From the NCBI GenBank assembly GCA_963828805.1, contig CAWHGS010000043.1:585-64584 (forward strand): DNA of 64,000 bases, given 5' to 3'. A model generated the notes under the pieces. It made no database searches and was not told where the DNA came from. It saw nothing but the letters and a program-made list of their open reading frames with translations. The translations under genes and the position numbers were made by a program. The DNA comes from an uncultured delta proteobacterium (GTDB lineage Bacteria > Desulfobacterota > BSN033 > UBA1163). This document shows, piece after piece, positions 963-63,946 of this stretch (positions within the stretch are counted from its first letter, which is position 1; every line of letters begins with the position of its first letter).

Positions 963-1037
963 TGGAGGCGGCAACCGGATTTGAACCGGTGAATAACGGT
1001 TTTGCAGACCGTCGCCTTACCACTTGGCTATGCCGCC
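963..1037 (-). tRNA. tRNA-Cys (anticodon GCA), CCA encoded
   Basis: The reverse complement is GGCGGCATAGCCAAGTGGTAAGGCGACGGTCTGCAAAACCGTTATTCACCGGTTCAAATCCGGTTGCCGCCTCCA. It has a cloverleaf, a CT-GCA-AA anticodon loop and a GGTTCAAATCC T-arm. Confidence 0.9.
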
Positions 1038-1039
1038 GT

Positions 1040-1116
<77 letters not shown>

Positions 1117-14573: not shown

Positions 14574-16800
14574 TCATTCCACGGCCCGGTATCCGCATTC
14601 TTTCTGCGGGCACCGTACCACGGCTCCGCCCTTGCCCTGCTTTTCAATCAGATAGGGATGATCACACTGAGGGCATTTTTCAGGAATGGGTTTGTCCCAT
14701 AGGGCAAACGTGCAGCGAGGATAATTGCTGCAACTGTAAAAAACTTTCCCTTTCCGCGTCCTCCGCTCAACAATCATGCCGTCGCATCCCTCCTGGAGAC
14801 ATCGGACCCCTGTCTCGATCGGTTTCGTGAATTTACAGGTAGGATAGTTGGAGCAGGCCAGAAATCGTCCAAATTTCCCTGTTTTGACGACCATGGAGCC
14901 TCCGCATTTTTCACACGGGGGTCCATTGACGACCTGATTCTCTTCAGTCTCTTCGACCTCTCTCGTATAGCGGCATTCGGGATAGGTGGAACAGGCCAGA
15001 AAATAACCCCTCTTCCCCCACCGTTTCACCATCTTTGAACCGCAGCGTTCGCAGAGAATATCCGTGGGGATCAGTTCTTTCTTCACATCCCTCATAGAGA
15101 CCTTTGCCATTTTCAGGTCCTTCTCAAAGGGCCGGTAGAACTCCCGAAGCGTCTCCACCCAACCTTTGTCACCGTCTTCAATCTTATCCAGGTTTTCTTC
15201 CATCTGGGCGGTAAACTCGACATCAAAGATATCCGGGAAGCTGACGACAAGGAGATCATTGACAAGGCATCCTAACTCTGTGGGAAAGAATTTTCCCTTT
15301 TCGAGCTTCACGTATTGCTTTTCCTTGATGGTGCTCAAAATGGAGGCATAGGTGGAAGGCCTTCCGATCCCCCTCTCCTCCAATTCCCTGATCAGGGTGG
15401 CCTCTGAAAACCGGTAAGGAGGTTGCGTAAAATGCTGCTTCTGTGTGAGACCTAACAGAGCCAGCAGTTCTCCTTCAGAGAGGGCGGGCAATATTTTTTC
15501 CTGCTCCCCGTTTTCGGGATCGTCCTCTCCTTCCATGTAGAGGGCTATGAATCCCTGAAAGACAGGAACGGTGCCGACCGAGCTAAAGATCGCTTCATCC
15601 GCCTTGATCTCGATGGTGGTCTGCTGAAAGACCGCAGAGGCCATCTGGGAGGCCACGAATCGATCCCAGATCAGTTTGTAGAGAACCCATTGCTCTTTGT
15701 CGAGATACGCCTTGACCTTCTCGGGGGTCAGTTCCATCGACGTTGGACGGATGGCCTCGTGGGCCTCCTGGGCGCCTTTGCGGCTCTTATAGACATTCGG
15801 TTTTGGAGGCAGGTACGATTCACCGAACCGGTCCTTGATCCAGTCCCTCACCTGCCGAATCGCTTCGTCGCCACCCGGGGCGAATCGGTCCTCATGTAAG
15901 TGATCAAGCCCACGCTCCCGATGTCGCCCAGTTCCATCCCCTCATACAGCCGCTGGGCAATCCTCATCGTCTTTTGGGCGTAAAAGGAGAGTTTTCGATA
16001 GGCCTCCTGCTGGAGTCGGCTCGTGATGAAGGGAGGAAAGGGGTGGCGCTGTTTCTCCTGCCGGGTAATCTTTGAGACCGTATAGCTCGCTCCCTCAAGG
16101 GTCTTCTTGATGGCCAGGGCTTCCTGACTCATTGGCCATTTTGACCTTCTTCCCTTTCCATTTTGACAAGTTTGGCATCAAAGGAGACCGGCGACTCCTT
16201 TCCCTGGAGGGTCGCCGTGAGGCTCCAGTACTCCTCAGAGACAAACGCCTTGAATCTCCCTCTCCCTCTCGCAGATGATCCGCACGGCAACGGACTGGAC
16301 CCGGCCTGCGCTGAGTCCCCGCCGAACCTTCTCCCAGAGGATCGGGCTGACCTGATAACCCACCAGCCGGTCCAGGATGCGCCTCGCCTGCTGGGCTTCA
16401 AACTTGCTCTGCTGCAATTTTCCGGGGTGGCGAAGGGCATCGAGGACGGCCTTCTGGGTGATCTCATTGAAGAGAACCCGGTAAACCGTTCTTATCTTCA
16501 TCGCCGATCTCTTCTGCAATATGCCAGGCAATGGCTTCCCCTTCCCGGTCCGGGTCCGGCCCGAGGATAAATGTTCTTCACTCCCTTGCTTGCCTTTTTC
16601 AGTTCCCGGAGCACCTTCGCTTTTCCAGGAATGGAGACGTATTCGGGTTGAAAGTCCTTCTCAAGGTCGACTCCGAGTTCACCCTCTGGAAGGTCTTTGA
16701 TATGACCCAGGGAGGCTTTGACAAGATAGTCCTCTCCCACAAATTTCTGAATAGTCTTCACCTTCGCAGGTGATTCTACAATGATTAATCCTTTTGACAT
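14574..16800 (-). pseudogene. topA: DNA topoisomerase I, interrupted by several frame shifts
   Basis: N-terminal Toprim region LIIVESPAKVKTIQKF (16498-16800). Middle fragments at 16129-16531 and 15848-16132. The C-terminal 425-aa piece carries four Zn-ribbon CxxC repeats (14574-15851). Confidence 0.9.
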
Positions 16801-21600: not shown

Positions 21601-22108
21601 ATGAAAAGACCTTTTCTTAAATGGTTCATCCTGCTTATCTCTGTCGGGGCTTTGTCCTTCTTTCCCCAGTGTGGCAAGAACGTAAAGGAATCAGGCTTGG
21701 CGCCGGATTTCAGCCTCAAAACCCTTGAGGGTCAAGAGATGACCCTTGCTTCCCTGAAGGGAAAGGTCGTGCTCATCGACTTCTGGGCCACCTGGTGTGG
21801 CCCTTGTCGAGAATCCATTCCTCATCTTGTCACTCTCTACAAGAATTATCGAGAAAAGGGCTTTGAAGTCATCGGCATGAGCGTCGATAAGGGAGAAGCG
21901 GATGTGGTTCGCCGTTTCAGTCAAATCCATGGATATTCCTTATCCGATCCTCATCGCCTCTGAGGAGGTCACGCGAAGCTATGGTGTGACCGCCTTGCCG
22001 ACCACGTTCTTCATCGACAGGGAGGGCAATATTCGGGAAAAGATGATTGGATTCAATTCCAAGATTGCAAAAGAGCTGGCAGCGAAAGGTAAAAGAACTG
22101 ACCTCTGA
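21601..22108 (+). pseudogene. TlpA/ResA-like periplasmic thiol:disulfide oxidoreductase, one frame shift
   Basis: Signal/lipoprotein-like N-terminus, then FWATWCGPCRESIPHL. The C-terminal piece ...MDIPYPILIA...ALPTTFFIDREG is in the frame of ORF 21902-22108. The switch is near 21935. Confidence 0.8.
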
Positions 22109-22270
22109 AAAACCCTGATCTCTAAATCCCGATGCGTGGATCCTCAAACCGAAACACGTTCCGATCATCCGAATCTAAAACGAACAGATGAAGTTCGTCC
22201 CCGTAGATTTGAATATTTGAAATTCGAGCTTGCTCCGGATGTCGGCATCCGAATTTGGGATTCTAACAGG

Positions 22271-23821
22271 TTACTTCTTTTTGGCGGGTCCCAAGGAATT
22301 GAGATAATCCTCGATCACCTTTTTCGGGTCTAACCCGAGGCACTGGGCATACCCCTTTAAAAATCCCTTGAGGTAGACCTGGGCCGGAAGCTGCCCAACG
22401 TTCTCTTCTTCGATCCACTTCCAAGATCTTGAGGGTAATCCTCGTCTCCATGAAGATGGTCTTCAGATCAATCCCCATCTTTTCACGGATCTGCTTCAGC
22501 ATCTTTCCCCGGTAAGGACCTTCTCCCAGGTCGACGGAAATCTCCGAAAAAGGAAGGTACGTCTTTTTTTCCATGGGGCTTTCAGGAGCCTCGGGGAGTT
22601 TTTCCGACCTGGGCCATTTCAGATTCAGGGCGGAAAGGTGCGTCTGATCGTAATTCTTTCTCGAGGTCTCATCCATGAGGACCCGGTGGGCCTCCTCAAT
22701 CACGGCCTGTATCTTCTCCATCTCCTTTTCCGAAAAGAGGGAATAGACCGCCACGGAATCGTTCTGATAGGTCTCTTTCGCACGTTCGTAGGCCTGTTGA
22801 ATTTCCCTGCTGGTGGCATCGGGGCAGACCTCTAAGATTTCATAATAGGTCTGCTCTTCAATCCGCTTCATCTGTTCTTCCCCTTGAAACCGAAAGGCCA
22901 TCTGATGTTTGTTTGCCATCTTAGAGGCAATCTCAGCCACGCATTGGGCTGCTTTGGAACGCGGATTTTCTAAGACCAGAGGCCTTCTCTTCCGAATCGA
23001 ATTGCTGACATCCTGGTCATAAACAACGTATCCCAAATAATGGAGATGGATCCCGAAATATTGTTTGCAGGCGCTCCGGATGGAAAACCCCACTTCTATA
23101 TCCTTCTTCGTCCTGACCTGATTGAGAATGAGGTTCGGTGGAAATCCCTCCACCTCCCGGCCACCTTCCTCGCCTCCTCGTCGCCGACCCGGGTCATGGC
23201 CTCGATCAGATCCGAGGGGTTCTGAATTCCGAGTTCATTTTTCCGATCCATGGCTCCATCGATCAAGGCCTTCGCTTCCGCAGAGGACACGGCACTCCTG
23301 ATCCTCCGATAAAAAGCGCTCTTGAGAAAGCGATAGGCATTTTCGATGGAGGTGGGCTCAGGAGTCACCACGAGAATCCCCCCGTCGGACATGAGGAAGA
23401 AATCGAGGACATTCAGGGCATTGCCCGCTCCAAGATCAACCAGAATATAGTCGCTTTCGAGATGCTGAATGGAGCGAAGGAGCTTCCGTTTCTGAACGCT
23501 CTTGGCATCCGCCGCGTTGAGGAGGTCCTGGGCGCCGCTCAGGAGCTGGAGGTTTGGAACCGACGTTGGAATCAAAACCTCCTGCAGGTGAGGGACCCGT
23601 CTTCTGGATGAAATCAGAAAGGGAGAGGTTGGGAGGCGAAACCCCTAGAAAGGTGTGGAGATTCGCCCCCCCCAAATCAGCATCAACAAGGATGACCTTC
23701 GACCCCGAGTTGAGAGAGACAGATGCCCATATTGACGGTGATAAAGCTCTTACCACTGCCTCCCTTGCCTCCTCCAATGGTCCAGATCACCTTTCGGTTG
23801 CCACTCGAAGGCTGACTCATC
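22271..23821 (-). pseudogene. MinD/ParA-like P-loop ATPase fused to a J domain and a RodZ-like HTH, interrupted
   Basis: My translation from 23821 gives MSQPSSGNRKVIWTIGGGKGGSGKSFITVNMG, a deviant Walker A. It continues VILVDADLGGANLH...ILVDLGAG...VVTPEPTSIENAYRF. Next comes the J domain YYEILEVCPDATSREIQQAYERAKETYQND, then KMLKQIREKMGIDLKTIFMETRITLKILE. The corrected tail ...YLKGFLKGYAQCLGLDPKKVIEDYLNSLGPAKKK* ends at 22271. Confidence 0.7.
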
Positions 23822-24174: not shown

Positions 24175-25167
24175 GTGCCACGATTTGTTCTTATGAAAAG
24201 AGTGGAAATTGAAGCTTATTTCTATGTCCTCAGTGCGGCTACCTTCTGGGGGTTGTCCGGGGCGGTTGCAAAATCTCTTTTCAATGCCGGACTTTCTCCT
24301 CTGCGTCTTGTTCAAATCAGGATGACCCTCGCGGCCCTTATCCTCTTCTTTATACTGCTCTTCCTCGACCGGAAACGGTTGATCATTTCACCAAAAGACG
24401 TCCTCTATTTTCTCATCTTTGGCATTATCGGCATGGCCGGCAACCAATTTTCATACTATTTCACCGTGAGCAAAATTCAAGTGGGTCCCGCTGTTCTCAT
24501 TCAGTATCTCTGCCCCGTCTGGATCACCTTATATGCTTATTTCTTTCAGAAAGAACCCCTCCCAAAAAAAATGGCCGCCGCCCTTCTCCTGGCAGTTCTT
24601 GGATGTTATATGGTTGCAGGCGGTTATCGAATCGATCTCTTGAATCTGAACCGGGTGGGGATCATGGGAGGAATCGCCTCGTCGTTCTTTGCCGCTTTCT
24701 ATGCCCTCTATGCAGAAAAAGGATTGAAGAAATACGATGGTTGGACCCTTCTGCTCTATGGCTTGGGAGCAGGCGGCCTCTTTTGCTGCGTCCTCAACTC
24801 ACCCATGGAAATCGTCTCGGCGGGTTACCCTTTCAAGATCTGGATGGCTTTCTTTTATATCGCGACGTTCGCCACCCTTGTTCCATTTGCCCTCTATTTC
24901 AAAGGGATTGAAAGAATTCGGGTGACCCGGGCCAGTATCATCGCGAACTGGGAGCCGGTGATGGCAGGATTATCAGCCTACTTCATTCTGGGGGAGGTGT
25001 TGGAACCTCTGCAAGTCCTGGGCGGCTTCGGGGTGATTGCCGCCGTGATCCTTCTCCAGCTGGCAAAGGAGACCGCCGGTCCCTCTTCCGCCCTTGAGAT
25101 TCGCCAAGAAGGGAAAAGGGTAAACGATAGCCCTTTCCGAACAACGCTTGTAACCTGTTCGAAATAG
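24175..25167 (+). CDS. DMT superfamily (EamA-type) transporter, paralog A
   Basis: Ten-TM profile with two EamA-like halves. By eye it aligns without gaps to ORF 25753-26676, for example SKIQVGPAVLIQYL versus SKIQVGPAVLMQYL. Confidence 0.8.
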   Translation: MPRFVLMKRVEIEAYFYVLSAATFWGLSGAVAKSLFNAGLSPLRLVQIRMTLAALILFFILLFLDRKRLIISPKDVLYFLIFGIIGMAGNQFSYYFTVSKIQVGPAVLIQYLCPVWITLYAYFFQKEPLPKKMAAALLLAVLGCYMVAGGYRIDLLNLNRVGIMGGIASSFFAAFYALYAEKGLKKYDGWTLLLYGLGAGGLFCCVLNSPMEIVSAGYPFKIWMAFFYIATFATLVPFALYFKGIERIRVTRASIIANWEPVMAGLSAYFILGEVLEPLQVLGGFGVIAAVILLQLAKETAGPSSALEIRQEGKRVNDSPFRTTLVTCSK

Positions 25168-25185
25168 ATCATGGAGGTATAGAAC

Positions 25186-25593
25186 ATGAAACAGAGAAGA
25201 CTCCTGGTTGCAGTCATGACAGGCCTTGTCCTTTCATGGATGCTGGTCACGATCGCACAGACCGAGGAGATTCCAAGGATGACCAAGGAGGAACTCAAAG
25301 GAATGCTCGGTAAACCGGAGGTGATCATCATCGATGTACGATCCAAAGCCGACTGGGCCGGGAGCAAACTAAAAATCAAAGGAGCGGTCAGGGAGGATCC
25401 GAAAAAGGTGGCCTCCTGGATGGACAAATATTCCAAAGACAAGATAATCGTTTTTTACTGTGCCTGAGTGAAGGAGGCGACCAGTGCCAGTGTGGCGCTC
25501 CAATTCAAGGATAAAGGGTATACCAAGGTTCATGCGTTGAAGGACGGCTGGAAGGAATGGCAGAAAGCCAACTTCCCCACTGAAAAGAAATAG
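25186..25593 (+). CDS. periplasmic single-domain rhodanese with in-frame TGA (25465-25467) at the catalytic Cys position; candidate selenoprotein
   Basis: GGAGG RBS and signal peptide MKQRRLLVAVMTGLVLSWMLVTIAQ. The ORF track stops at ...IIVFYCA*. The same frame continues VKEATSASVALQFKDKGYTKVHALKDGWKEWQKANFPTEKK* to 25593. The TGA aligns with Cys65 of E. coli GlpE ([19 protein letters not shown]). Confidence 0.6.
25473..25501 (+). promoter_or_regulatory. SECIS-like stem-loop candidate downstream of the rhodanese TGA
   Basis: The sequence GGAG-g-CG-a-CCA / TGG-CG-CTCC forms 9 bp with two single-base bulges and a 9-nt loop GUGCCAGUG. It starts 5 nt after the TGA, and the apical loop lies about 19-27 nt from the U of UGA. 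Confidence 0.35.
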
Positions 25594-25752
25594 GGATGCA
25601 TGGCCAAGGGGCGATGGCGGCCATTCATCCGGCTGCCATCACCCCCTCAATCTACAAAAAGCCTTGCCTGATACTCTTTGGCATGATCTATCACCTGAAG
25701 ATAACACTTCTGAGTTGACTTTGTCCCCGTTTCCGTAACAAGATGATGTCCA

Positions 25753-26676
25753 ATGAAAAAACACGAAATCCATGGTTATCTCTATATTCTGACCGGGGCA
25801 ACGCTCTGGGGATTATCAACGGTAGTTGCAAAGGCTCTCTTCAACGTTGGGCTCCCTCCAGCCCAGCTCGTTCTTATTCGCTTGACCCTTTCAGCCCTCA
25901 TTCTTATCCTGCTGTTTCTCATCCATGACCGAACCCGCCTGGTCATCTCCCTAAAAGACTTGCCCTATTTTCTCATTCTCGGTTTCATTGCCGTGGCGGG
26001 CATGCAATTCATGTATTTTTACACCATCAGCAAAATTCAGGTTGGACCCGCCGTGCTCATGCAATACCTCTCCGTCTTCTGGGTTGCCGGCTATGCTTTT
26101 CTTTTCCAGAAAGAGCCTATCACCTTTGGGAAGATGTCCTCTCTCCTTCTTTCCCTGATCGGATGCTATCTGGTCGTAGGTGGATACCAAATCAACCTCC
26201 TTAAATTGAACAGGGATGGAATTGCAAGCGGACTCCTCGGCTCTCTTTTCTTCGCCTTCTATACGCTTTACGGAGAGAGGGGCCTGAAGAAATATGATCC
26301 CTGGAAACTCCTCCTCTACGGCTTCGGGTTTGGGGCGATCTTTTTCTGGATTCTGAACCCTCCCTCTGAAATCATTCAGGCAGGATACCCAGTCAGGTTC
26401 TGGCTCGCCTTTTTCTACATCACCATCTTTTCGACGCTTATCCCTTTTGGTTTCTACTTCAAAGGAATCGACCGGATCCGCGCAACCCGTGCAGGTATCA
26501 CCTCAACCTTGGAGCCTGTGGTCGCAGGGATTACCGCCTATCTTGTTCTGGGGGAGTTCCTGCATCCTCTCCAGATAGTGGGGGGTCTGATCGTGATTGC
26601 AGCCATTGTCCTCCTTCAGATCTCGAGAGAAAAATCTTCCCCTGAGTCCCCCCTGGAGATCCGTAAAAAGGATTAA
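25753..26676 (+). CDS. DMT superfamily (EamA-type) transporter, paralog B
   Basis: 307-aa ORF with a ten-TM profile. It is clearly paralogous to 24175-25167. Confidence 0.8.
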   Translation: MKKHEIHGYLYILTGATLWGLSTVVAKALFNVGLPPAQLVLIRLTLSALILILLFLIHDRTRLVISLKDLPYFLILGFIAVAGMQFMYFYTISKIQVGPAVLMQYLSVFWVAGYAFLFQKEPITFGKMSSLLLSLIGCYLVVGGYQINLLKLNRDGIASGLLGSLFFAFYTLYGERGLKKYDPWKLLLYGFGFGAIFFWILNPPSEIIQAGYPVRFWLAFFYITIFSTLIPFGFYFKGIDRIRATRAGITSTLEPVVAGITAYLVLGEFLHPLQIVGGLIVIAAIVLLQISREKSSPESPLEIRKKD

Positions 26677-31881: not shown

Positions 31882-34091
31882 TCAAGATTCGCAGGAAGAT
31901 CGATAGATTCGCTGCCCGATGGCATCGGCAATCGCATTCAGAATGGCAGGGGCAGTCGGAATCAGGGCCGGTTCTCCCACGCCCTTGGCTCCAAAGGGAC
32001 CGGTCGGTTCCTCGTCCTCAACCAGGATTGGGATCACTTCCGGAATGTCCTTCGAGGTGGGAATGAGGTAGTTGACGAAAGAGGATGTCTCTTCTGGAAC
32101 GAATTCCTCCATCAGGGCAAATCCCAACCCCATCGCGACACCACCCGTGATCTGCCCTCTCACATTCTTCGGATGAATCGCCTTTCCAACATCATGGCAT
32201 GCAACGATCCGGTTGACCTTGACCCTTCCCGTCTCTGTATCGACCTCCACCTCTGCCAGGTGGGTGGCAAAGGCATAGGTCGCATAAGGAATGCCCTGAC
32301 CTGTTTTGGGATCGAGTTTGGTCGTCTCCGGATCAAAAAAACCTTCTCCCCTCAGCAATTTCCCGGATCTTCTTGCCACCTCCTGCATTGAGATACGAAT
32401 GCCGCGAGGATCCGATTTCGACCGAATATGCCATCTTCCAGGAGCAGTTCTTTTTCGGGAATACCCAGCATCAGGCCTGCCTCTTTTAAGGCCTCCTGTT
32501 TCAGGTTTTTGATCGCATTGAGGATCGCATTGCCGGAGATGTAGGTCTGCCGGCTTGCTGAGGAGGCGCCTGCATCGGTCGTCATGGCCGTGTCGGCCCG
32601 AATCAAACGGATCTCTTTTAAATCCACTCCCAGGGCCTCAGACGCAATCTGAAGGAGGACGGTATCCGATCCCTGACCGATGTCTGCTGCTCCGGTCAGA
32701 AGCCGAATTTCTCCATTGGGATGGATCTCCATCTGTGCCGTGGAGGGATTGGCAACCCCCGTATTCCCAATCCCGTACCACATGGAACCGACACCGACTC
32801 CTCTTCTTGATATAAGGCCTTTTCGGGTCCTCCCTGGAGAAGACCTGCTGATCCCTCCACTCTTTCACTTTGCGAAGGGTTTCCCCAATCCCGACACTTG
32901 CCGTGAGCGTCTGCCCTGTGGCTGTTTCAGCGCCGACCTGAAAGGCATTCTTCAGCCGAATCTCGATCGGGTCCATCTTCAGACCCCGGGCAAGGAGGTC
33001 CATCTGCGACTCGTGGGCAAAGGCCATTTGAGGCACGCCAAACCCCCGCATCGCTCCGCTCCAGGGGTTGTTGGTATAGACCATCTGGCTCCTCGACCTT
33101 GACATTGGGAACCTAGTAGGGCCCTGTGGCATGGACAGCCGAACGGATGCAGACAGCAACCCCGTAGGAGGCATAGGCCCCCGAATCACCGAGAATATCC
33201 ACTTCGACGGCGGTCAATGTTCCGTCTTTCTTCGCGCCGCTCTTGTATCGGATCTTCAGGGGATGGCGCTTGGAAGTTCCCTGAAAGACCTCTTCACGGG
33301 AATAGACGATCCTGACCGGCTTTTTGAGATGGTAGACGGCCAGGGCCAAGAAAACAGTGAACCGTAATGTCCAGTCTTCCTCCAAACCCACCACCGGTGG
33401 CGCTCTGGATGATCCGGACCTTTTCCAAGGGCAAACCCAGCGTCGAAGCCACGTCCTTCTGATCGTAATGGATGTTTTGAGTCGGACAGACGACGGTGAC
33501 CCTTCCCTCTTCATCCAGGTAAGCGATCCCGGCATCCGGCTCTAAATAGGCATGCTCAACCCATGTGGTGGTATAGGTCTCTTCTGCGATGAAGTCCGCT
33601 TCTTTAAATCCTGCCTGGACATCCCCCTTGATCACATGAAATTCGAGAAGCAGGTTTCCCTTTTCATGGATGGAGGGAGCATAGGGTTTGAGGGCCTCTT
33701 CCGGGCTTGAAATAAACGGGAAGGTCTTCATAAGTGATCGACCACTCGTCTGGCTGCCTCTTCTGCGGCCTCAGCCGACCTCGCAGCAACCAGTGCCACC
33801 GGGTCACCGATATATCTCACCCGGTCGGAGGCTAAGACGGGTTGATCCTTTGTTAATGATTCCGATCAGATTTTTCCCGGGAATGTCTCTTGCAGTAAAG
33901 ATCCTCTCCACCCCTGGAACCTTGAGGGCTTCATCGATCTGGATGCTTACAATCCTGGCGTGGGGCTTTTCACTCCGGACCACTTTCAGATGAAGAGGAT
34001 CCTCGATCGATTGATCGGCTCCATACCTGGCAGAACCCAGAACCTTTTCCAGGACATCGACCTTCGGGATGTCAATTCCCACCTGTTTCAT
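31882..34091 (-). pseudogene. xanthine dehydrogenase-family molybdopterin-binding large subunit, heavily interrupted
   Basis: The N-terminus is MKQVGIDIPKVDVLEKVLGSARYGADQ at 34091. Successive collinear fragments are 33294-33731, 33113-33535, 32638-33189, 32352-32783 and 31882-32388 (...GAKGVGEPALIPTAPAILNAIADAIG). The real stop may lie further down, at about 31761. Confidence 0.8.
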
Positions 34092-50417: not shown

Positions 50418-52185
50418 TCACCGACCCCCGCCACTGCTGGAACTGGAACGACTGGAACTGGAACTTCCCCCCTTGTTGTGGGTCACAAAGTTTGCCGCCA
50501 AAAAGGTATTGGGCGATCCGACACTGAGGTTGTAGACCGGTTCTTCCTTTTCCCCCAGTTGGGTCCGAAGGACTGTTGCGGACCGCACTTCGCCGTCATT
50601 CCAATTAAGAACCTTCTGCCCGGGCCGGAGCCTGCCAGCCGGGATAAACCCTCCGCCCAGTAGCCCCACGGGATGGTCTGTCGTGGTCCTTAGGCAGCCA
50701 CGATCCGTTTCGACGGCAAGCACGAGCGAGCGGGTATCGAAGATCTTCTCAACCCGCGTCTCCAACCTCTGGCCCTGAGAGTCCAGCGCAAGAACCGGCT
50801 CCCCCGGGGAGAGCTTCTCAATCGCAGTTTCGCCCTTCGGGGTACAGATCGGGGTCCCTGCCGGGAAGCACCCGCCTCCCTTGTTGTGGACAACGATCCC
50901 ATCCGCTATGAATGTATTGGGCGCTTCCACCTGGAGGTTGAAGACCAACTCATCACCTACCGGATGGGAGATGCCATGCACCTTCCTTTCAACCAGCCTG
51001 CCGTCCTTCCACTTCAGGATTCGGTCTCCCGGCCGGAGTTCCCCGGCCTGTCTGAACCTTCCTCTTCCAATGCTTACAGGGTGCTCCTCTGTGGCAGCCA
51101 GGACCTCTTCGCCCGTCCTGATCTGCATGACAGGGCTTTTGCTGATAAAGAGGACTTTCACAGTGGTCCGGACGGTATGACCTTCGGTGTCAACCGCAAG
51201 AACCTCATCACCCGATGCGAGTGTCTCAATGGAAACCGTTCCATGGGGTGTCGCAATCTTTGTGCCGGCTGGGAAGCACCCCCCTCCTCCGCCCTTGTTG
51301 TGAACGGCAAGTTGGCCCGCGAAAAAGGTGTTAGGGTGATCGGTCTGGAGGTTAAAGACCTCCACTTGCTCATGGACTTTTTGCAATGAGACAATCCGCT
51401 GCTCGGCAAGCCACTTGTCCGTCCCAAGTAAAAACCGTATCCCCCTCTTTGAGCGCTTCAACGGTCTTGAACGTGCCATGTCCAACATAAAAGGGGTGCT
51501 CGGCCGTGACCCGAAGCGTTGTCTGGTCTGTCTTAAGGAGAAAGTATTCGTCGACCTTGAGACGAACGATCTCCCGCACCCTTGCCTGAACCATGCGCCC
51601 TCCAGGCTTAAAGGCCAGGAGCGTCGTCCCCCGGCCTGAGGGCACTGATTGGTGATTCTGTTCCGTCTGGCCTGAGAATCCGGCTATCCGGCAGAAAACA
51701 CCCTTTGTTATGAACAACGAGCCCCTCTGTAACAAACGTCCCGCCAGGGCTGACGAGCAGGTTATAAGCCGGCCGCCTTGCGGCCATCCGGCGGACCGAC
51801 AGAACCTGGGCTGGCGCGGAGGCGTCCATTTCGCATTTCGAAAACCGTGTCGCCCTTGCTTGAGCCGATCCGCGAGTCGGTATTCGCCCCGGCCCACCAT
51901 CAACAGATGTTCGGCAGTAACCTCCAGTCTCGACCCGGAAGCCGAAACTTCCAGAAATTCCTCTGGCTCCACCGCCGTCAGCGCCTGGACTTCGGCCCTC
52001 TTCAGCCTCCCCTCCACGACGCTCCAGACGGTGTCTCCCTTCTTCAGCCTTTCGATGGCAACCGATCCATCCGGGGTCGAAACGAGCGTACCCTCTGCCA
52101 AACACCCTCCGCCCCCCCGTGCCCACGAAATGACAGGGCTAAGACAGAGCAGGAGAACGGCTGACCACCACATCATCCACGCCAT
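50418..52185 (-). pseudogene. exported protein consisting of four tandem Hint (intein-like) modules, interrupted by frame shifts
   Basis: Signal peptide MAWMMWWSAVLLLCLSPVISWA. The four modules span 52104-51707, 51700-51297, 51278-50883 and 50870-50475. Each is Cys...TxxH...HN, and they are joined by K-G(n) linkers. The Ser/Gly tail ends at 50418. Confidence 0.7.
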
Positions 52186-62013: not shown

Positions 62014-62457
62014 ATGCAAGTCATTTTATTGGAAGATGTTTCCTCTTTGGGAAAGGCTGGGGATCTGGTCAAGGTCTCGGACGGATATGGCCGCAACTAC
62101 CTGATCCCCCAGAAAAAGGCCATCCTGGCCACGGAAAAAAATATCAAAACCTTGGAACATCAGAAACGTCTGGTTCAACATCGCATGGCAAAGACGAAGA
62201 AGGATGTCCAGAAAATGGCCCAGGAGATCGAGACTCTCTCCTGTACCTTTGCCAGGTCGGTTGGAGAGAGCGGAAAGCTCTTCGGGTCGGTCACCTCCAT
62301 GGATATTGAAGCCTACCTCAAGGAAAATGGCCTCGAGATCGATCGCAAGAAGATCCACCTGGAGGAACCCCTGAAGAGCGTGGGCATGTTTACCGTTCCG
62401 ATCAAGCTCCATCCGGAGGTCGTCGCCAATCTCAAGGTCTGGATCGTTCAGGAGTAA
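62014..62457 (+). CDS. rplI: 50S ribosomal protein L9
   Basis: Sequence MQVILLEDVSSLGKAGDLVKVSDGYGRNYLIPQKKA. Confidence 0.9.
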   Translation: MQVILLEDVSSLGKAGDLVKVSDGYGRNYLIPQKKAILATEKNIKTLEHQKRLVQHRMAKTKKDVQKMAQEIETLSCTFARSVGESGKLFGSVTSMDIEAYLKENGLEIDRKKIHLEEPLKSVGMFTVPIKLHPEVVANLKVWIVQE

Positions 62458-62463
62458 TGGAGG

Positions 62464-63946
62464 ATGAAGGAGGAAAACGTCTCCTCCCACAAAATGCCTC
62501 CTCAGAATATTGAGGCGGAGCAGTCTGTCCTGGGAGGCATTCTCATCGAAAATGGGGCCATCCATAAAGTGATGGAGATCCTCACTCCTGACGATTTCTA
62601 CCGGGAGGCCCATCAAAAGATCTACAACAGCCTTCTCGACCTTTCCGAGAGGGACGAACCCGCTGACCTCATCACCCTCACCAACGAACTCCGGAAGAAA
62701 GACCAACTCGATTCGATCGGAGGGGCCTCCTACGTGGCCTCTCTCATCGATACGATCCCCACGGCCGCCAACATTGAATATTATGCCCGCATCGTCAAGG
62801 AAAAAGCGATCCTTCGAAAACTGATCGAGACCGCCACGGACATTGTCACCCAAGGCTACGAGGATCGGCAAGATGTGGAGGGACTTCTCGATGAGGCAGA
62901 GCGAGCCATCTTTCAGATCGCCGAAAACAGGGTGAGACCCTCTTTCTATCCGATCCGGGAGATCGTGAAGAGCAGCTTCAAAACCCTCGAAAAACTCTAT
63001 GAGAAGAAAGAGATGATCACGGGGATTCCTTCCGGGTTTAAAGATCTCGATCTGATACACGGCCGGCTTTCAACCCTCTGACCTCATCATCGTTGCCGGA
63101 AGGCCCAGCATGGGAAAGACAGCCCTCTGTCTCAATATCGCCCAGTATGCGGCGATTGAGAAAAGGGTTCCTGTTGCGATCTTCTCCCTTGAGATGTCGA
63201 AAGAACAGCTCGTTCTTCGGATGCTCTGCTCCGAAGCCCAGGTCGAAGGGACTCGGATCCGGACAGGCTTTCTGTCGGAGAGTGATTGGCCCAAACTGAC
63301 CCTCGCCGCAGGGAACCTCTCCGATGCCCCCATCTTCATCGATGACACACCCGCCCTCACCATTCTTGAATTGCGGGCCAAGGCCCGACGCCTCAAGGGG
63401 GAACATGGGTTGGGCATGCTCATCGTCGACTACCTCCAGCTCATGAGGGGAAGAACCATGATCGAAAACCGGCAGCAGGAGATCTCTGAAATCTCCCGTT
63501 CCCTCAAGGCCCTTGCCAAGGAGCTGAATCTCCCGGTGATCGCGGTTTCTCAGCTCAGCCGGAGATCGGAATCACGAGAGGATAAGAGGCCCCAGATGTC
63601 AGACCTCCGGGAATCGGGAGCCATTGAACAGGATGCGGACCTCATCCTCTTCATCTATCGGGATGAAGTCTACAATCGTTCTGAAGATAATCCCAATCGC
63701 GGAAAGGCCGAGGTCATCATCGGAAAGCAGCGGAATGGTCCGACCGGAAGGATCGAACTGGCCTTTCTGGACAAATTTACTGCCTTTAAAGACCTTTACA
63801 CGGGGCTCCGGGGGATGGCTACGAATAAGGAAACGGATAGGGTTCAAATCGGAGTATCAGAAAGTGCCATTGCAAGGAGTGCAGGCGACGTGGCGATCTC
63901 GAACAAGCTGATAGGAGATGTCAAACCCAAATTTCAGATCGATTGA
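62464..63946 (+). pseudogene. dnaB: replicative DNA helicase DnaB, one frame shift near 63075
   Basis: The N-terminus is PPQNIEAEQSVLGGILIENG. Walker A is [16 protein letters not shown] (frame of 63110-63946). It also has [32 protein letters not shown] and [12 protein letters not shown]. Confidence 0.9.

What the first reader, a model, noticed from the sequence alone, without database searches (positions are those of the whole stretch)
25186..25593. In-frame TGA at the catalytic cysteine position of a periplasmic rhodanese, followed by a stem-loop: candidate selenocysteine enzyme
The ORF track ends the gene at ...DKIIVFYCA-TGA (25465-25467). The same reading frame continues without any shift for 41 more codons, VKEATSASVALQFKDKGYTKVHALKDGWKEWQKANFPTEKK*, which completes a single-domain rhodanese fold. 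I aligned it from memory to E. coli GlpE ([35 protein letters not shown]). The TGA falls exactly on catalytic Cys65, and the downstream GY...V...DGW.EW pattern matches. A stem-loop begins 5 nt after the TGA (25473-25501). It has 9 bp, two single-base bulges and a GUGCCAGUG loop, and its apical loop lies about 19-27 nt from the UGA. This is roughly the geometry of bacterial SECIS elements. All other lesions in this window are frame shifts, whereas this one is a clean in-frame stop at an active-site Cys. A Sec/Cys swap at a redox or persulfide site is the established signature of selenoproteins.
Basis: partly seen in the sequence, partly recalled or inferred. Interest (0 to 1): 0.8.

Follow-up and report, generated by a model that had tools for sequence, protein, structure and literature searches.

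The report
Known CxU rhodanese selenoprotein gene
The in-frame TGA is a genuine selenocysteine codon in a small exported rhodanese-like protein, but this selenoprotein family has been predicted since 2005 and has its own NCBI model, so the finding is a correct rediscovery and not something new.

Summary
ORF 25186-25467 ends ...IVFYCA-TGA, and the same frame runs 41 more codons to TAG at 25591-25593, completing a Pfam rhodanese domain.

The TGA is neither an error nor a pseudogene lesion:
- Four independent metagenome contigs carry the same gene with the same TGA.
- 75 of 76 orthologous genes, mostly from Thermodesulfobacteriota MAGs, have TGA at this codon and one has TGT.
- The 37 codons downstream are as conserved as the upstream part and show codon periodicity.
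- A hairpin with compensatory changes and an invariant loop G follows the TGA.

The read-through protein scores 177.5 bits (cutoff 115) against NCBIfam NF041203 "rhodanese_LYCAU, rhodanese-related (seleno)protein". This is the "CxU" rhodanese selenoprotein, predicted in 2005 and listed in reviews.

- The conserved SECIS core is 25484-25498 (GUGCCA/UGGCGC, loop GUG). The 25473-25501 stem is only 45% paired across orthologues.
- Sec most likely does not replace the canonical catalytic Cys. That Cys (C92) is retained and is invariant apart from Sec in the UxU variants. Structure models put it at the canonical position, with Sec two residues later in the active-site loop.

No Sec machinery lies in this window. 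Function and selenium incorporation remain untested experimentally.

The parts
25173..25177 (+). Shine-Dalgarno GGAGG, 8 nt upstream of the ATG
   Evidence: Read directly from the sequence.
25186..25593 (+). Complete selenoprotein gene: 135 codons including one UGA (Sec94), plus the TAG stop. It belongs to NCBIfam NF041203, rhodanese_LYCAU.
   Evidence: Translation. Pfam PF00581 positions 1-102 of 102. NF041203.1 scores 177.5 bits with C at the Sec position, or 170.8 with X, against a cutoff of 115.
25186..25260 (+). Probable signal peptide (MKQRRLLVAVMTGLVLSWMLVTIAQ). The exact cleavage site was not determined.
   Evidence: Inference from a basic N-terminus followed by a hydrophobic stretch. 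Homologues carry the same layout and end in AxA-like sites just before the conserved (V/I)PRMTKEELK. No signal-peptide predictor was available.
25459..25461 (+). TGT codon for Cys92, the conserved Cys at the canonical rhodanese catalytic position, two residues before Sec
   Evidence: Invariant in the alignments. The codon is TGC or TGT in 72 of 76 orthologous genes and TGA in 4. AlphaFold models of homologues P0031 and P0042 put it as the first residue after the central strand.
25465..25467 (+). UGA decoded as selenocysteine (Sec94)
   Evidence: TGA in 75 of 76 orthologous genes and TGT in 1. Identical TGA in four independent contigs. Homologues with Cys at this position: P0142, P0153, P0167, P0181 and L058.
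25484..25498 (+). Conserved bSECIS core hairpin. Pairs: G25484-C25498, U25485-G25497 (wobble), G25486-C25496, C25487-G25495, C25488-G25494, A25489-U25493. The loop is GUG at 25490-25492, with the family-invariant G at 25490. An A25483-U25499 pair can extend the stem.
   Evidence: Alignment A2 of 74 orthologues. Pair counts and covariation. Energies of -7.8 and -9.0 kcal/mol. The published bSECIS constraints are met.
25468..25590 (+). C-terminal 41 codons of the rhodanese domain, translated after Sec insertion
   Evidence: Across 74 orthologues there is 1 stop in this frame against 109 and 113 in the other two frames. Third-position entropy is 1.38 against 0.77 and 0.72. Mean amino-acid identity is 55%, against 51% upstream.

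Best explanation
Window 25186-25593 is one gene. It encodes a 135-residue precursor of an exported, single-domain rhodanese-like selenoprotein of the known family NCBIfam NF041203 (rhodanese_LYCAU). Reviews call this family 'rhodanese-like form 3' or 'COG0607 form 2, CxU motif'.

The UGA at 25465-25467 is read as selenocysteine. A small hairpin inside the coding sequence (core 25484-25498, loop GUG, formed by the Thr-Ser-Ala-Ser-Val-Ala codons) has the geometry of a bacterial SECIS. It would recruit SelB carrying Sec-tRNA(Sec) to the ribosome paused at the UGA. That recruitment step is inferred from the established bacterial mechanism.

In the protein, the canonical rhodanese catalytic Cys (C92) is retained. 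Sec94 lies two residues later in the six-residue active-site loop C-A-U-V-K-E, giving a C-x-U pair.

The most likely chemistry, inferred and not shown, is a periplasmic sulfane-sulfur or redox relay. C92 would carry a persulfide, as in other rhodaneses. The neighbouring, more nucleophilic selenolate would accept or resolve it through a selenenylsulfide or seleno-persulfide intermediate. The physiological substrate is unknown.
For: - Gene anatomy.
- Full rhodanese domain only with read-through.
- Curated family: NF041203.1, an equivalog model described as 'rhodanese-related (seleno)protein', 177.5 bits against a cutoff of 115.
- Truncated database homologues: 108 of the 120 best end exactly at ...YC[AS].
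- Codon conservation: among 76 orthologous genes (the window plus 80 species-representative genome loci) the codon is TGA in 75 and TGT in 1.
- Downstream frame conserved, periodic and free of stops.
- Not an error: the exact gene with TGA occurs in 4 independent metagenome contigs, and the differences downstream of the TGA are synonymous.
- Hairpin columns 20-24 with 30-34: 369 of 370 cells paired. Compensatory changes are UA to CG in 12 sequences, CG to UA in 7 and GC to CG in 1. G26 is invariant, and 0 of 500 shuffles reach the observed covariation score.
- Synonymous sites frozen: Ser is AGY in 73 of 74 sequences and Ala is GCC in 67 of 67.
- The Cys homologue L058 has a weakened hairpin.
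- The published bSECIS constraints are all met: loop 3-9 nt, stem 4-16 bp, G in the first two loop positions, 16-37 nt spacing, MFE at or below -7.5 kcal/mol.
- TGA is an ordinary stop for 8 of 17 other genes in the window.
- Position of Cys and Sec in the fold: AlphaFold models of P0031 (pLDDT 92.6) and P0042 (pLDDT 88.7). Foldseek matches to rhodanese domains have TM 0.8-0.85.
- Literature: the family was predicted in 2005, the UxU variant was described in 2007, and reviews list the family as CxU.
Against: - No selA, selB, selD or tRNA-Sec lies in the 64-kb window, although only the larger ORFs were scanned. The organism's ability to decode Sec is therefore inferred from its relatives, not shown.
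The family hairpin has only about 6% pair probability in an isolated 48-nt fold.
- The window is riddled with frameshifts, so its sequence quality is poor.
- The structure models are of homologues carrying W or S at the Sec position, not of this protein, and no coordinates could be inspected.
- The family is listed among 'predicted' selenoproteins. The papers read here report no selenium incorporation or enzymatic activity for it.
- The proposed C-x-U chemistry is inference only.
Confidence: 0.9

Rival explanations
1. Sec94 itself occupies the canonical catalytic Cys position, and C92 is just the end of the beta-strand.
For: Counting back from the conserved GY motif, U is 16 residues upstream, the same spacing as recalled for Cys65 of GlpE (own knowledge of the GlpE sequence). 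One ungapped HMMER alignment to domain 2 of PDB entry 6mxv puts the U position on that protein's Cys.
Against: - The alignment to domain 1 of 6mxv instead puts C92 on the Cys, with a 2-residue gap.
- Two AlphaFold models place C92's equivalent directly after the central strand, and the helix starts six residues later. That makes C92 the canonical residue.
- C92 is invariant, or Sec, in all homologues. The U position is L, S or D in several non-Sec homologues.
- The short-loop homologues P0098 and P0145 keep the C92 equivalent.
- The curated motif is CxU.
Confidence: 0.1
2. The TGA is a nonsense mutation or an assembly error in a decaying or poorly sequenced gene, like the other lesions in this window.
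For: The window has many broken genes. Examples are the TlpA/AhpC-TSA-like gene at 21601-22092, the molybdopterin dehydrogenase-like gene at 31882-33213 and topoisomerase I.
Against: - Those other lesions are frameshifts. This one is a substitution-type in-frame stop.
- It is present in four independent contigs from other samples and in 75 of 76 orthologous genes from different species.
- The downstream coding sequence is under purifying selection.
Confidence: 0.01
3. Two separate products: translation stops at the TGA, giving a 93-residue protein, and the 41-codon GTG ORF at 25468 is translated on its own. Alternatively, only the truncated protein is functional.
For: In this sequence the codon after the TGA is GTG, a possible start, and gene callers list the 41-aa ORF separately.
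Against: - In most orthologues the codon after the TGA is CCN, GCN, ACN and similar, not a start codon.
- The truncated product lacks one third of the rhodanese fold.
- The conserved covarying hairpin with an invariant loop G has no role in this scenario.
Confidence: 0.02
4. The organism reads TGA as a standard amino acid (Trp or Gly; genetic code 4 or 25), so no selenocysteine is involved.
For: Several database homologues are translated with W at this position: P0028-P0031, P0129 and P0132.
Against: - Those W forms come from short contigs. P0031 also reads through its real terminal TGA (…TEKKWSSPP), which marks a gene-caller code-4 artefact.
- In this window TGA terminates 8 of 17 other genes examined.
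- TGA occurs at one specific codon of this family in many lineages that use the standard code.
Confidence: 0.01

Closest known systems
NCBIfam NF041203 'rhodanese_LYCAU', rhodanese-related (seleno)protein. [quoted passage not shown] Predicted by Zhang & Gladyshev 2005.
   Same: Full-length HMM match above the curated cutoff. The motif here is F-Y-C-A-U. It is a single rhodanese domain of about 130 residues with an N-terminal signal-like segment. It occurs mainly in Thermodesulfobacteriota.
   Different: Nothing of substance; this is a member. The only local peculiarities are a U-G wobble in the SECIS stem and a competing local fold.
UxU double-selenocysteine variant of the same rhodanese family (Olavius algarvensis delta-symbionts, Zhang & Gladyshev 2007, PMC1976440)
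   Same: Same family and same Sec position. Such variants were also seen here in loci L034, L042 and L049.
   Different: The window gene has Cys (TGT), not a second Sec, at the -2 position.
Other rhodanese-like selenoproteins (forms 1, 2 and 4, with UxxS or UxxG motifs; TsoB with UxxxxU)
   Same: Rhodanese fold with Sec in or at the active-site loop.
   Different: They have different Sec-motif contexts and separate models. The TsoB model scores only 37 bits against a cutoff of 805 here.
Single-domain Cys rhodaneses: E. coli GlpE (PDB 1gmx) and the periplasmic PspE; Wolinella succinogenes periplasmic polysulfide-sulfur transferase Sud. PspE and Sud are cited from own knowledge.
   Same: Same fold (Foldseek TM 0.78 to GlpE). 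The catalytic Cys comes directly after the central strand, followed by a six-residue loop. PspE and Sud are also periplasmic.
   Different: None of these has selenocysteine or a second chalcogen nucleophile at loop position 3. The NCBIfam GlpE model scores 25 bits against a cutoff of 102, so this gene is not a GlpE orthologue.
Bacterial SECIS consensus model (bSECISearch; prototype E. coli fdhF)
   Same: A hairpin lies inside the coding sequence just downstream of the UGA. It has a small apical loop with G then U, 21-22 nt of spacing, and MFE at or below -7.5 kcal/mol.
   Different: The stem is much shorter (5-7 bp) than the roughly 40-nt fdhF element (own knowledge). Binding to SelB has not been tested.

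Membership tests
NCBIfam NF041203 rhodanese_LYCAU (CxU rhodanese selenoprotein) | Whole-protein HMM score at or above the curated cutoff of 115 bits | tested here: met
   177.5 bits with C at the Sec position and 170.8 bits with X. The match covers profile positions 6-126 of 126.
NCBIfam NF041203 rhodanese_LYCAU (CxU rhodanese selenoprotein) | Motif [LF]-Y-C-[AS]-U, with U encoded by an in-frame TGA | tested here: met
   F-Y-C-A-TGA at 25453-25467. The same motif occurs in 75 orthologous genes.
Bacterial selenoprotein gene | The in-frame UGA is conserved in orthologues, and the coding sequence downstream is conserved | tested here: met
   TGA in 75 of 76 genes. Downstream there is 1 stop in frame against 109 and 113 out of frame, with third-position periodicity and 55% mean identity.
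Bacterial selenoprotein gene | Homologues exist with Cys in place of Sec | tested here: met
   L058 has TGT. P0142, P0153, P0167 and P0181 have C-x-C. Some homologues instead have S, L or D at this position.
Bacterial selenoprotein gene | bSECIS element: apical loop of 3-9 nt, upper stem of 4-16 bp, G in the first two loop positions, 16-37 nt from the UGA, MFE at or below -7.5 kcal/mol | tested here: met
   The hairpin at 25484-25498 has 6-7 bp, a GUG loop, 22 nt of spacing and -7.8 to -9.0 kcal/mol. The criteria are taken from PMC13188914.
Bacterial selenoprotein gene | The SECIS structure is conserved, with covariation, in TGA-containing orthologues | tested here: met
The core 5 bp are paired in 369 of 370 cells. 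Three pairs show double-sided changes. G26 is invariant. 0 of 500 shuffles reach the observed score, and slid controls are far lower.
Bacterial selenoprotein gene | Sec machinery (selA, selB, selC/tRNA-Sec, selD) in the same genome | tested here: inconclusive
   No tRNA-Sec and no sel-gene domains were found among the 20 largest ORFs of the window. 64 kb is too little to judge, and the rest of the genome is not available.
Bacterial selenoprotein gene | Selenium actually incorporated (75Se labelling or mass spectrometry) | not testable with these tools
   The 2022 review lists the family under 'Predicted'.
Rhodanese domain (Pfam PF00581) | Full-length domain match and the alpha/beta rhodanese fold | tested here: met
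   PF00581 positions 1-102 of 102, E 7e-17. AlphaFold models of homologues have pLDDT 92.6 and 88.7. Foldseek gives TM 0.8-0.85 to solved rhodanese domains.
Rhodanese domain (Pfam PF00581) | A catalytic Cys as the first residue of the six-residue loop between the central strand and the following helix | tested here: met
   Met by C92, not by Sec94. In the models the strand ends at Y, the loop is C-x-(U)-x-x-E, and the helix starts at the next residue. This rests on models of homologues, not on an experimental structure.
   The NCBIfam GlpE model scores 25.4 bits against a cutoff of 102. The models put Sec at loop position 3.

The most novel reading that the evidence does not exclude
The family is catalogued, but the papers read here list it only as predicted and report no experiments on it. 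The evidence here suggests it is not a simple Cys-to-Sec swap. The canonical rhodanese Cys is kept, and a second, selenium nucleophile sits at loop position 3 (C-x-U, sometimes U-x-U or C-x-C). The protein appears to be exported, and its gene usually stands alone. The most novel reading still open is that this is a periplasmic two-chalcogen rhodanese with a catalytic cycle not described for rhodaneses. One possibility is an intramolecular S-Se selenenylsulfide acting as a redox switch or reductase. Another is a seleno-persulfide relay for sulfur, polysulfide or selenium trafficking in anaerobic Thermodesulfobacteriota.
Probability: 0.3. Interest if true: 0.45.

Novelty: already known. Interest (0 to 1): 0.2.

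Why it matters
- **For annotation.** The gene should be one 135-codon selenoprotein gene with a recoded TGA, not a 93-aa 'rhodanese' plus a 41-aa orphan ORF. In the large protein collection searched, 108 of the 120 closest homologues are truncated at this codon. Several others carry a spurious Trp from a code-4 gene call, so the misannotation is systematic.
- **For biology.** It marks the source organism as a probable selenocysteine user. It also adds comparative detail on a still uncharacterised selenoprotein family: a precise, covarying SECIS core and evidence that Sec is an extra residue next to the retained catalytic Cys.
- **What it does not do.** It reveals no new kind of system.

Tried and rejected
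- **Rfam.** The whole window at gathering thresholds gave only two tRNAs. The region 25400-25620 at E up to 10 gave only chance hits to eukaryotic RNAs. No bacterial SECIS family matched.
- **tRNA-Sec.** ARAGORN found none in the window.
- **Sec machinery.** Pfam scans of the 20 largest ORFs found no SelA, SelB or SelD domains.
- **A second selenoprotein gene in the window.** A mechanical list of 120 in-frame TGA junctions was too noisy.
  - The two longest candidates, 31882-33213(-) and 62026-63429(-), were translated. The first looks like a molybdopterin-dehydrogenase-type gene (read from its sequence and the synteny with L085) with a scrambled middle, most likely a frameshift. Neither shows a credible Sec site.
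  - The TlpA/AhpC-TSA-like gene at 21601-22092 is broken by a frameshift, not by a Sec codon, when compared with locus L085.
- **Conserved gene neighbourhood as a clue to function.** The EamA-rhodanese-EamA arrangement is shared only with very close relatives (L081, L082, L085, L086). Neither EamA protein has a tblastn hit in the 80 species-level loci, and no flanking ORF family recurs in more than 15 of the 80.
- **Structure prediction of the window's own protein.** Homologues P0031 (W at the Sec position) and P0042 (S at that position) were modelled instead.
- **Folding energy alone.** It does not single out the region (z = -0.51), so it was not used as evidence.
- **Promoter and terminator scan.** Nothing informative.

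Full report
**1. What is in the sequence**

The gene starts at ATG 25186, eight nucleotides after a GGAGG at 25173-25177. It reads MKQRR...DKIIVFYCA and then TGA at 25465-25467. The same frame continues without a shift for 41 codons (VKEATSASVALQFKDKGYTKVHALKDGWKEWQKANFPTEKK) to TAG at 25591-25593. The 93-residue product covers only positions 1-69 of the 102-position Pfam rhodanese model. The read-through product covers the whole model (E 7e-17). Its energy is unremarkable against shuffles (z = -0.51).

**2. The TGA is real and conserved**

- A search of 5.8 billion predicted proteins with the read-through sequence returned 255 hits. Of the 120 best, down to about 55% identity, 108 end exactly at ...YC[AS], the same spot.
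- Four JGI entries continue with W at that position. One of them, P0031, also reads through its true terminal codon (...TEKKWSSPP). This is the signature of a gene caller using code 4 on a TGA.
- The exact 93-residue protein is encoded on four other contigs from different samples. All four have TGA, and the nucleotide differences downstream of it are synonymous. This excludes an assembly error, even though the window itself is full of frameshifts.
- A scan of one genome per species found 313 relatives. The best 80 loci are almost all Thermodesulfobacteriota ('delta proteobacterium') MAGs: Syntrophobacterales, Syntrophorhabdales, Desulfomonilaceae and Desulfatiglandaceae. A few are labelled Methylomirabilis, Anaerolineales or Kiloniellaceae.
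- Across 76 orthologous genes in those loci plus the window, the codon is TGA in 75 and TGT in 1 (L058).
- Over 74 sequences, the 37 codons after the TGA contain one in-frame stop, against 109 and 113 in the other two frames. Third-position entropy is 1.38 against 0.77 and 0.72. Mean pairwise amino-acid identity is 55%, slightly above the 51% of the upstream 66 codons. The downstream part is clearly translated.
- TGA ends 8 of 17 other genes in the window, so the code is not reassigned.
- A profile-free search with the 41-residue tail found full-length homologues with Cys at the Sec position: P0142 YCSC, P0153 YCDC, P0167 YCAC and P0181 YCTC. Others have S or D there. The classical Sec/Cys pairing is therefore present.

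**3. The SECIS**

Forty-eight nucleotides from each UGA align without gaps (alignment A2, 74 sequences). The consensus is UGA NNN NNN GAR NNN ACN AGU GCC NGN GUG GCA C.

- Columns 20-24 pair with columns 30-34 in 369 of 370 cells.
- Compensatory changes occur at 21-33 (U-A to C-G in 12 sequences, U-G in 4), at 23-31 (C-G to U-A in 7) and at 20-34 (G-C to C-G in 1).
- G26 is invariant and column 27 is always U or G.
- None of 500 shuffles reaches the observed covariation score or percentage paired. Sliding the partner columns drops pairing to 20-46%.
- The 21-33 covariation involves two synonymous third positions (Ser AGU/AGC with Ala GCA/GCG), so it cannot be explained by protein constraints.
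- Ser is AGY in 73 of 74 sequences, and the first Ala is GCC in 67 of 67.
- The single Cys homologue, L058, has GGC in place of GCC and a weakened core (-4.1 kcal/mol against a family mean of -7.8).

In the window the hairpin is G25484-C25498, U25485-G25497, G25486-C25496, C25487-G25495, C25488-G25494 and A25489-U25493, with loop GUG. An A25483-U25499 pair can be added. The energy is -7.8 to -9.0 kcal/mol.

This meets every constraint of the published bSECIS model: loop of 3-9 nt, stem of 4-16 bp, G in the first two loop positions (typically followed by G or U), 16-37 nt from the UGA, and MFE at or below -7.5 kcal/mol (PMC13188914).

Across the family it is paired in only 44.6% of cells and does not beat its controls. 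Close relatives L083 and L084 break its first pair with a synonymous G25473A change. In this one sequence it is nevertheless 2 kcal/mol more stable than the family hairpin. Which fold forms on the ribosome here remains an open detail.

**4. Which family**

The read-through protein matches NCBIfam NF041203.1 'rhodanese_LYCAU', an equivalog model described as 'rhodanese-related (seleno)protein'. It scores 177.5 bits against a cutoff of 115 and covers the model end to end. The next models (ChrE, TsoB, MoeB, GlpE) all fall far below their cutoffs.

[quoted passage not shown] A 2007 paper on Olavius symbionts counted eight genes of 'rhodanese-related sulfurtransferase' selenoproteins. It also described a form in which a second Sec gives a UxU motif. 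I saw that form again in L034, L042 and L049. The finding is therefore a member of a known, curated family.

**5. Where Sec sits in the fold**

The family motif is Y-C-x-U, and the evidence points to the Cys as the canonical residue:

- The Cys is invariant in all alignments, or is itself Sec in the UxU variants.
- Non-Sec homologues keep that Cys while the U position is C, S, L or D.
- Two homologues with a loop two residues shorter (P0098 YCKHDTTS, P0145 YCQGEHTS) keep the Cys.
- AlphaFold models of two homologues agree. P0031 has W at the Sec position (pLDDT 92.6). P0042 has S there (pLDDT 88.7, with blocks around the site at 94-97). In both, the central strand ends at Tyr, the Cys is the first loop residue, the loop has six residues (C-x-U/S-x-N-E), and the helix begins at the next residue.

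This is the arrangement of the canonical catalytic Cys in rhodaneses (own knowledge of the GlpE and RhdA structures). The model matches solved rhodanese domains with TM 0.8-0.85, and GlpE (1gmx) with TM 0.78. HMMER alignments to PDB entry 6mxv are ambiguous between the two registers. I conclude, with moderate confidence, that C92 is the canonical catalytic residue and Sec94 is loop residue 3. This rests on models of homologues, and no coordinates could be inspected.

**6. How it most likely works**

- *Shown:* one gene; a conserved recoded UGA; a conserved, covarying hairpin with bSECIS geometry; a rhodanese fold with a C-x-U loop.
- *Inferred from the established bacterial Sec pathway:* SelB carrying Sec-tRNA(Sec) binds the hairpin and delivers Sec at the UGA.
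- *Inferred from sequence:* a basic and then hydrophobic N-terminus, with AxA-like sites in homologues, directs export.
- *Hypothesis:* C92 forms a persulfide as in other rhodaneses. The adjacent selenolate then accepts or resolves it through an S-Se bond or a seleno-persulfide. The protein would serve as a periplasmic sulfur or polysulfide carrier, or as a redox protein, in these anaerobes.

Gene context gives no help. The flanking EamA-family transporter genes (24175-25167 and 25753-26676) are shared only with very close relatives, and no neighbour recurs across the 80 loci.

**7. What is missing**

No tRNA-Sec and no sel genes lie in the window. The rest of the genome could not be reached. 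The family has only been predicted, never characterised, according to the reviews read.

**8. Verdict**

The TGA is a true selenocysteine codon in a known selenoprotein family. Its placement of Sec on the catalytic Cys and its choice of stem-loop are not. Novelty: already known. Interest: low (0.2). The value lies mainly in correcting the annotation and in the comparative detail on the SECIS and the C-x-U loop.

Noticed in passing
window 14574-16094(-), 21601-22092(+), 22263-23777(-), 31882-33213(-): Many genes in the window are broken by frameshifts. Examples are topoisomerase I, a TlpA/AhpC-TSA-like thiol-disulfide protein, a split run of ORFs at 22263-23777 whose L085 counterparts carry DnaJ and CbiA/ParA domains, and a molybdopterin-dehydrogenase-like subunit. 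Against the 90%-identical contig L085 there are 64 gap openings in 8.8 kb. This looks like indel noise from a long-read assembly rather than gene decay.
   Followed up: partly
L034 2136-2144; L042 1999-2007; L049 3256-3264: In these orthologues the conserved Cys codon two positions upstream is also TGA (Y-U-x-U), giving double-selenocysteine rhodaneses. Database proteins P0082, P0083 and P0116 end at ...FY or ...LY for the same reason. This variant was described in 2007 (PMC1976440).
   Followed up: partly
L015 3286 and 3734; L033 3259 and 3689: Two tandem paralogues of the selenoprotein lie about 450 nt apart. The second copy has the motif Y-C-D-U and a more diverged tail (…GFTKAYFLKGGWAEW…).
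   Followed up: no
L075 3268-3327 (Desulfacinum hydrothermale DSM 13146, NZ_FWXF01000005.1): This is the only cultured organism among the 80 loci. It has the TGA and the hairpin, but also an in-frame TAA 18 codons later (…LIGMGF*KVYALKGGW…). The cause is either a recent nonsense mutation or a sequencing error.
   Followed up: no
L058 3202-3249 (Syntrophorhabdales MAG): This is the single orthologue with TGT (Cys) instead of TGA. Its hairpin is weakened (GUGGC…GGCAC, Ala to Gly), as expected once the SECIS is no longer needed.
   Followed up: partly
protein database hits P0001-P0120, P0028-P0031, P0129, P0132: The misannotation is systematic. 108 of the 120 closest database homologues are truncated at the Sec codon. 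The 41-residue tails appear as separate orphan ORFs. Several short-contig entries carry W at the Sec position because the gene caller used genetic code 4.
   Followed up: yes
window 24175-25167(+) and 25753-26676(+): Two paralogous EamA-family (DMT superfamily) transporter genes flank the rhodanese gene on the same strand. The arrangement is kept in close relatives (L081, L082, L085, L086) but not in the 80 species-level loci.
   Followed up: partly
window 50418-51488(-): A 356-residue ORF carries Hint, intein-splicing and pretoxin-HINT domain matches.
   Followed up: no
window 963-1114(-): Adjacent tRNA-Cys(GCA) and tRNA-Gly(GCC) genes. These are the only RNA genes detected in the window.
   Followed up: no
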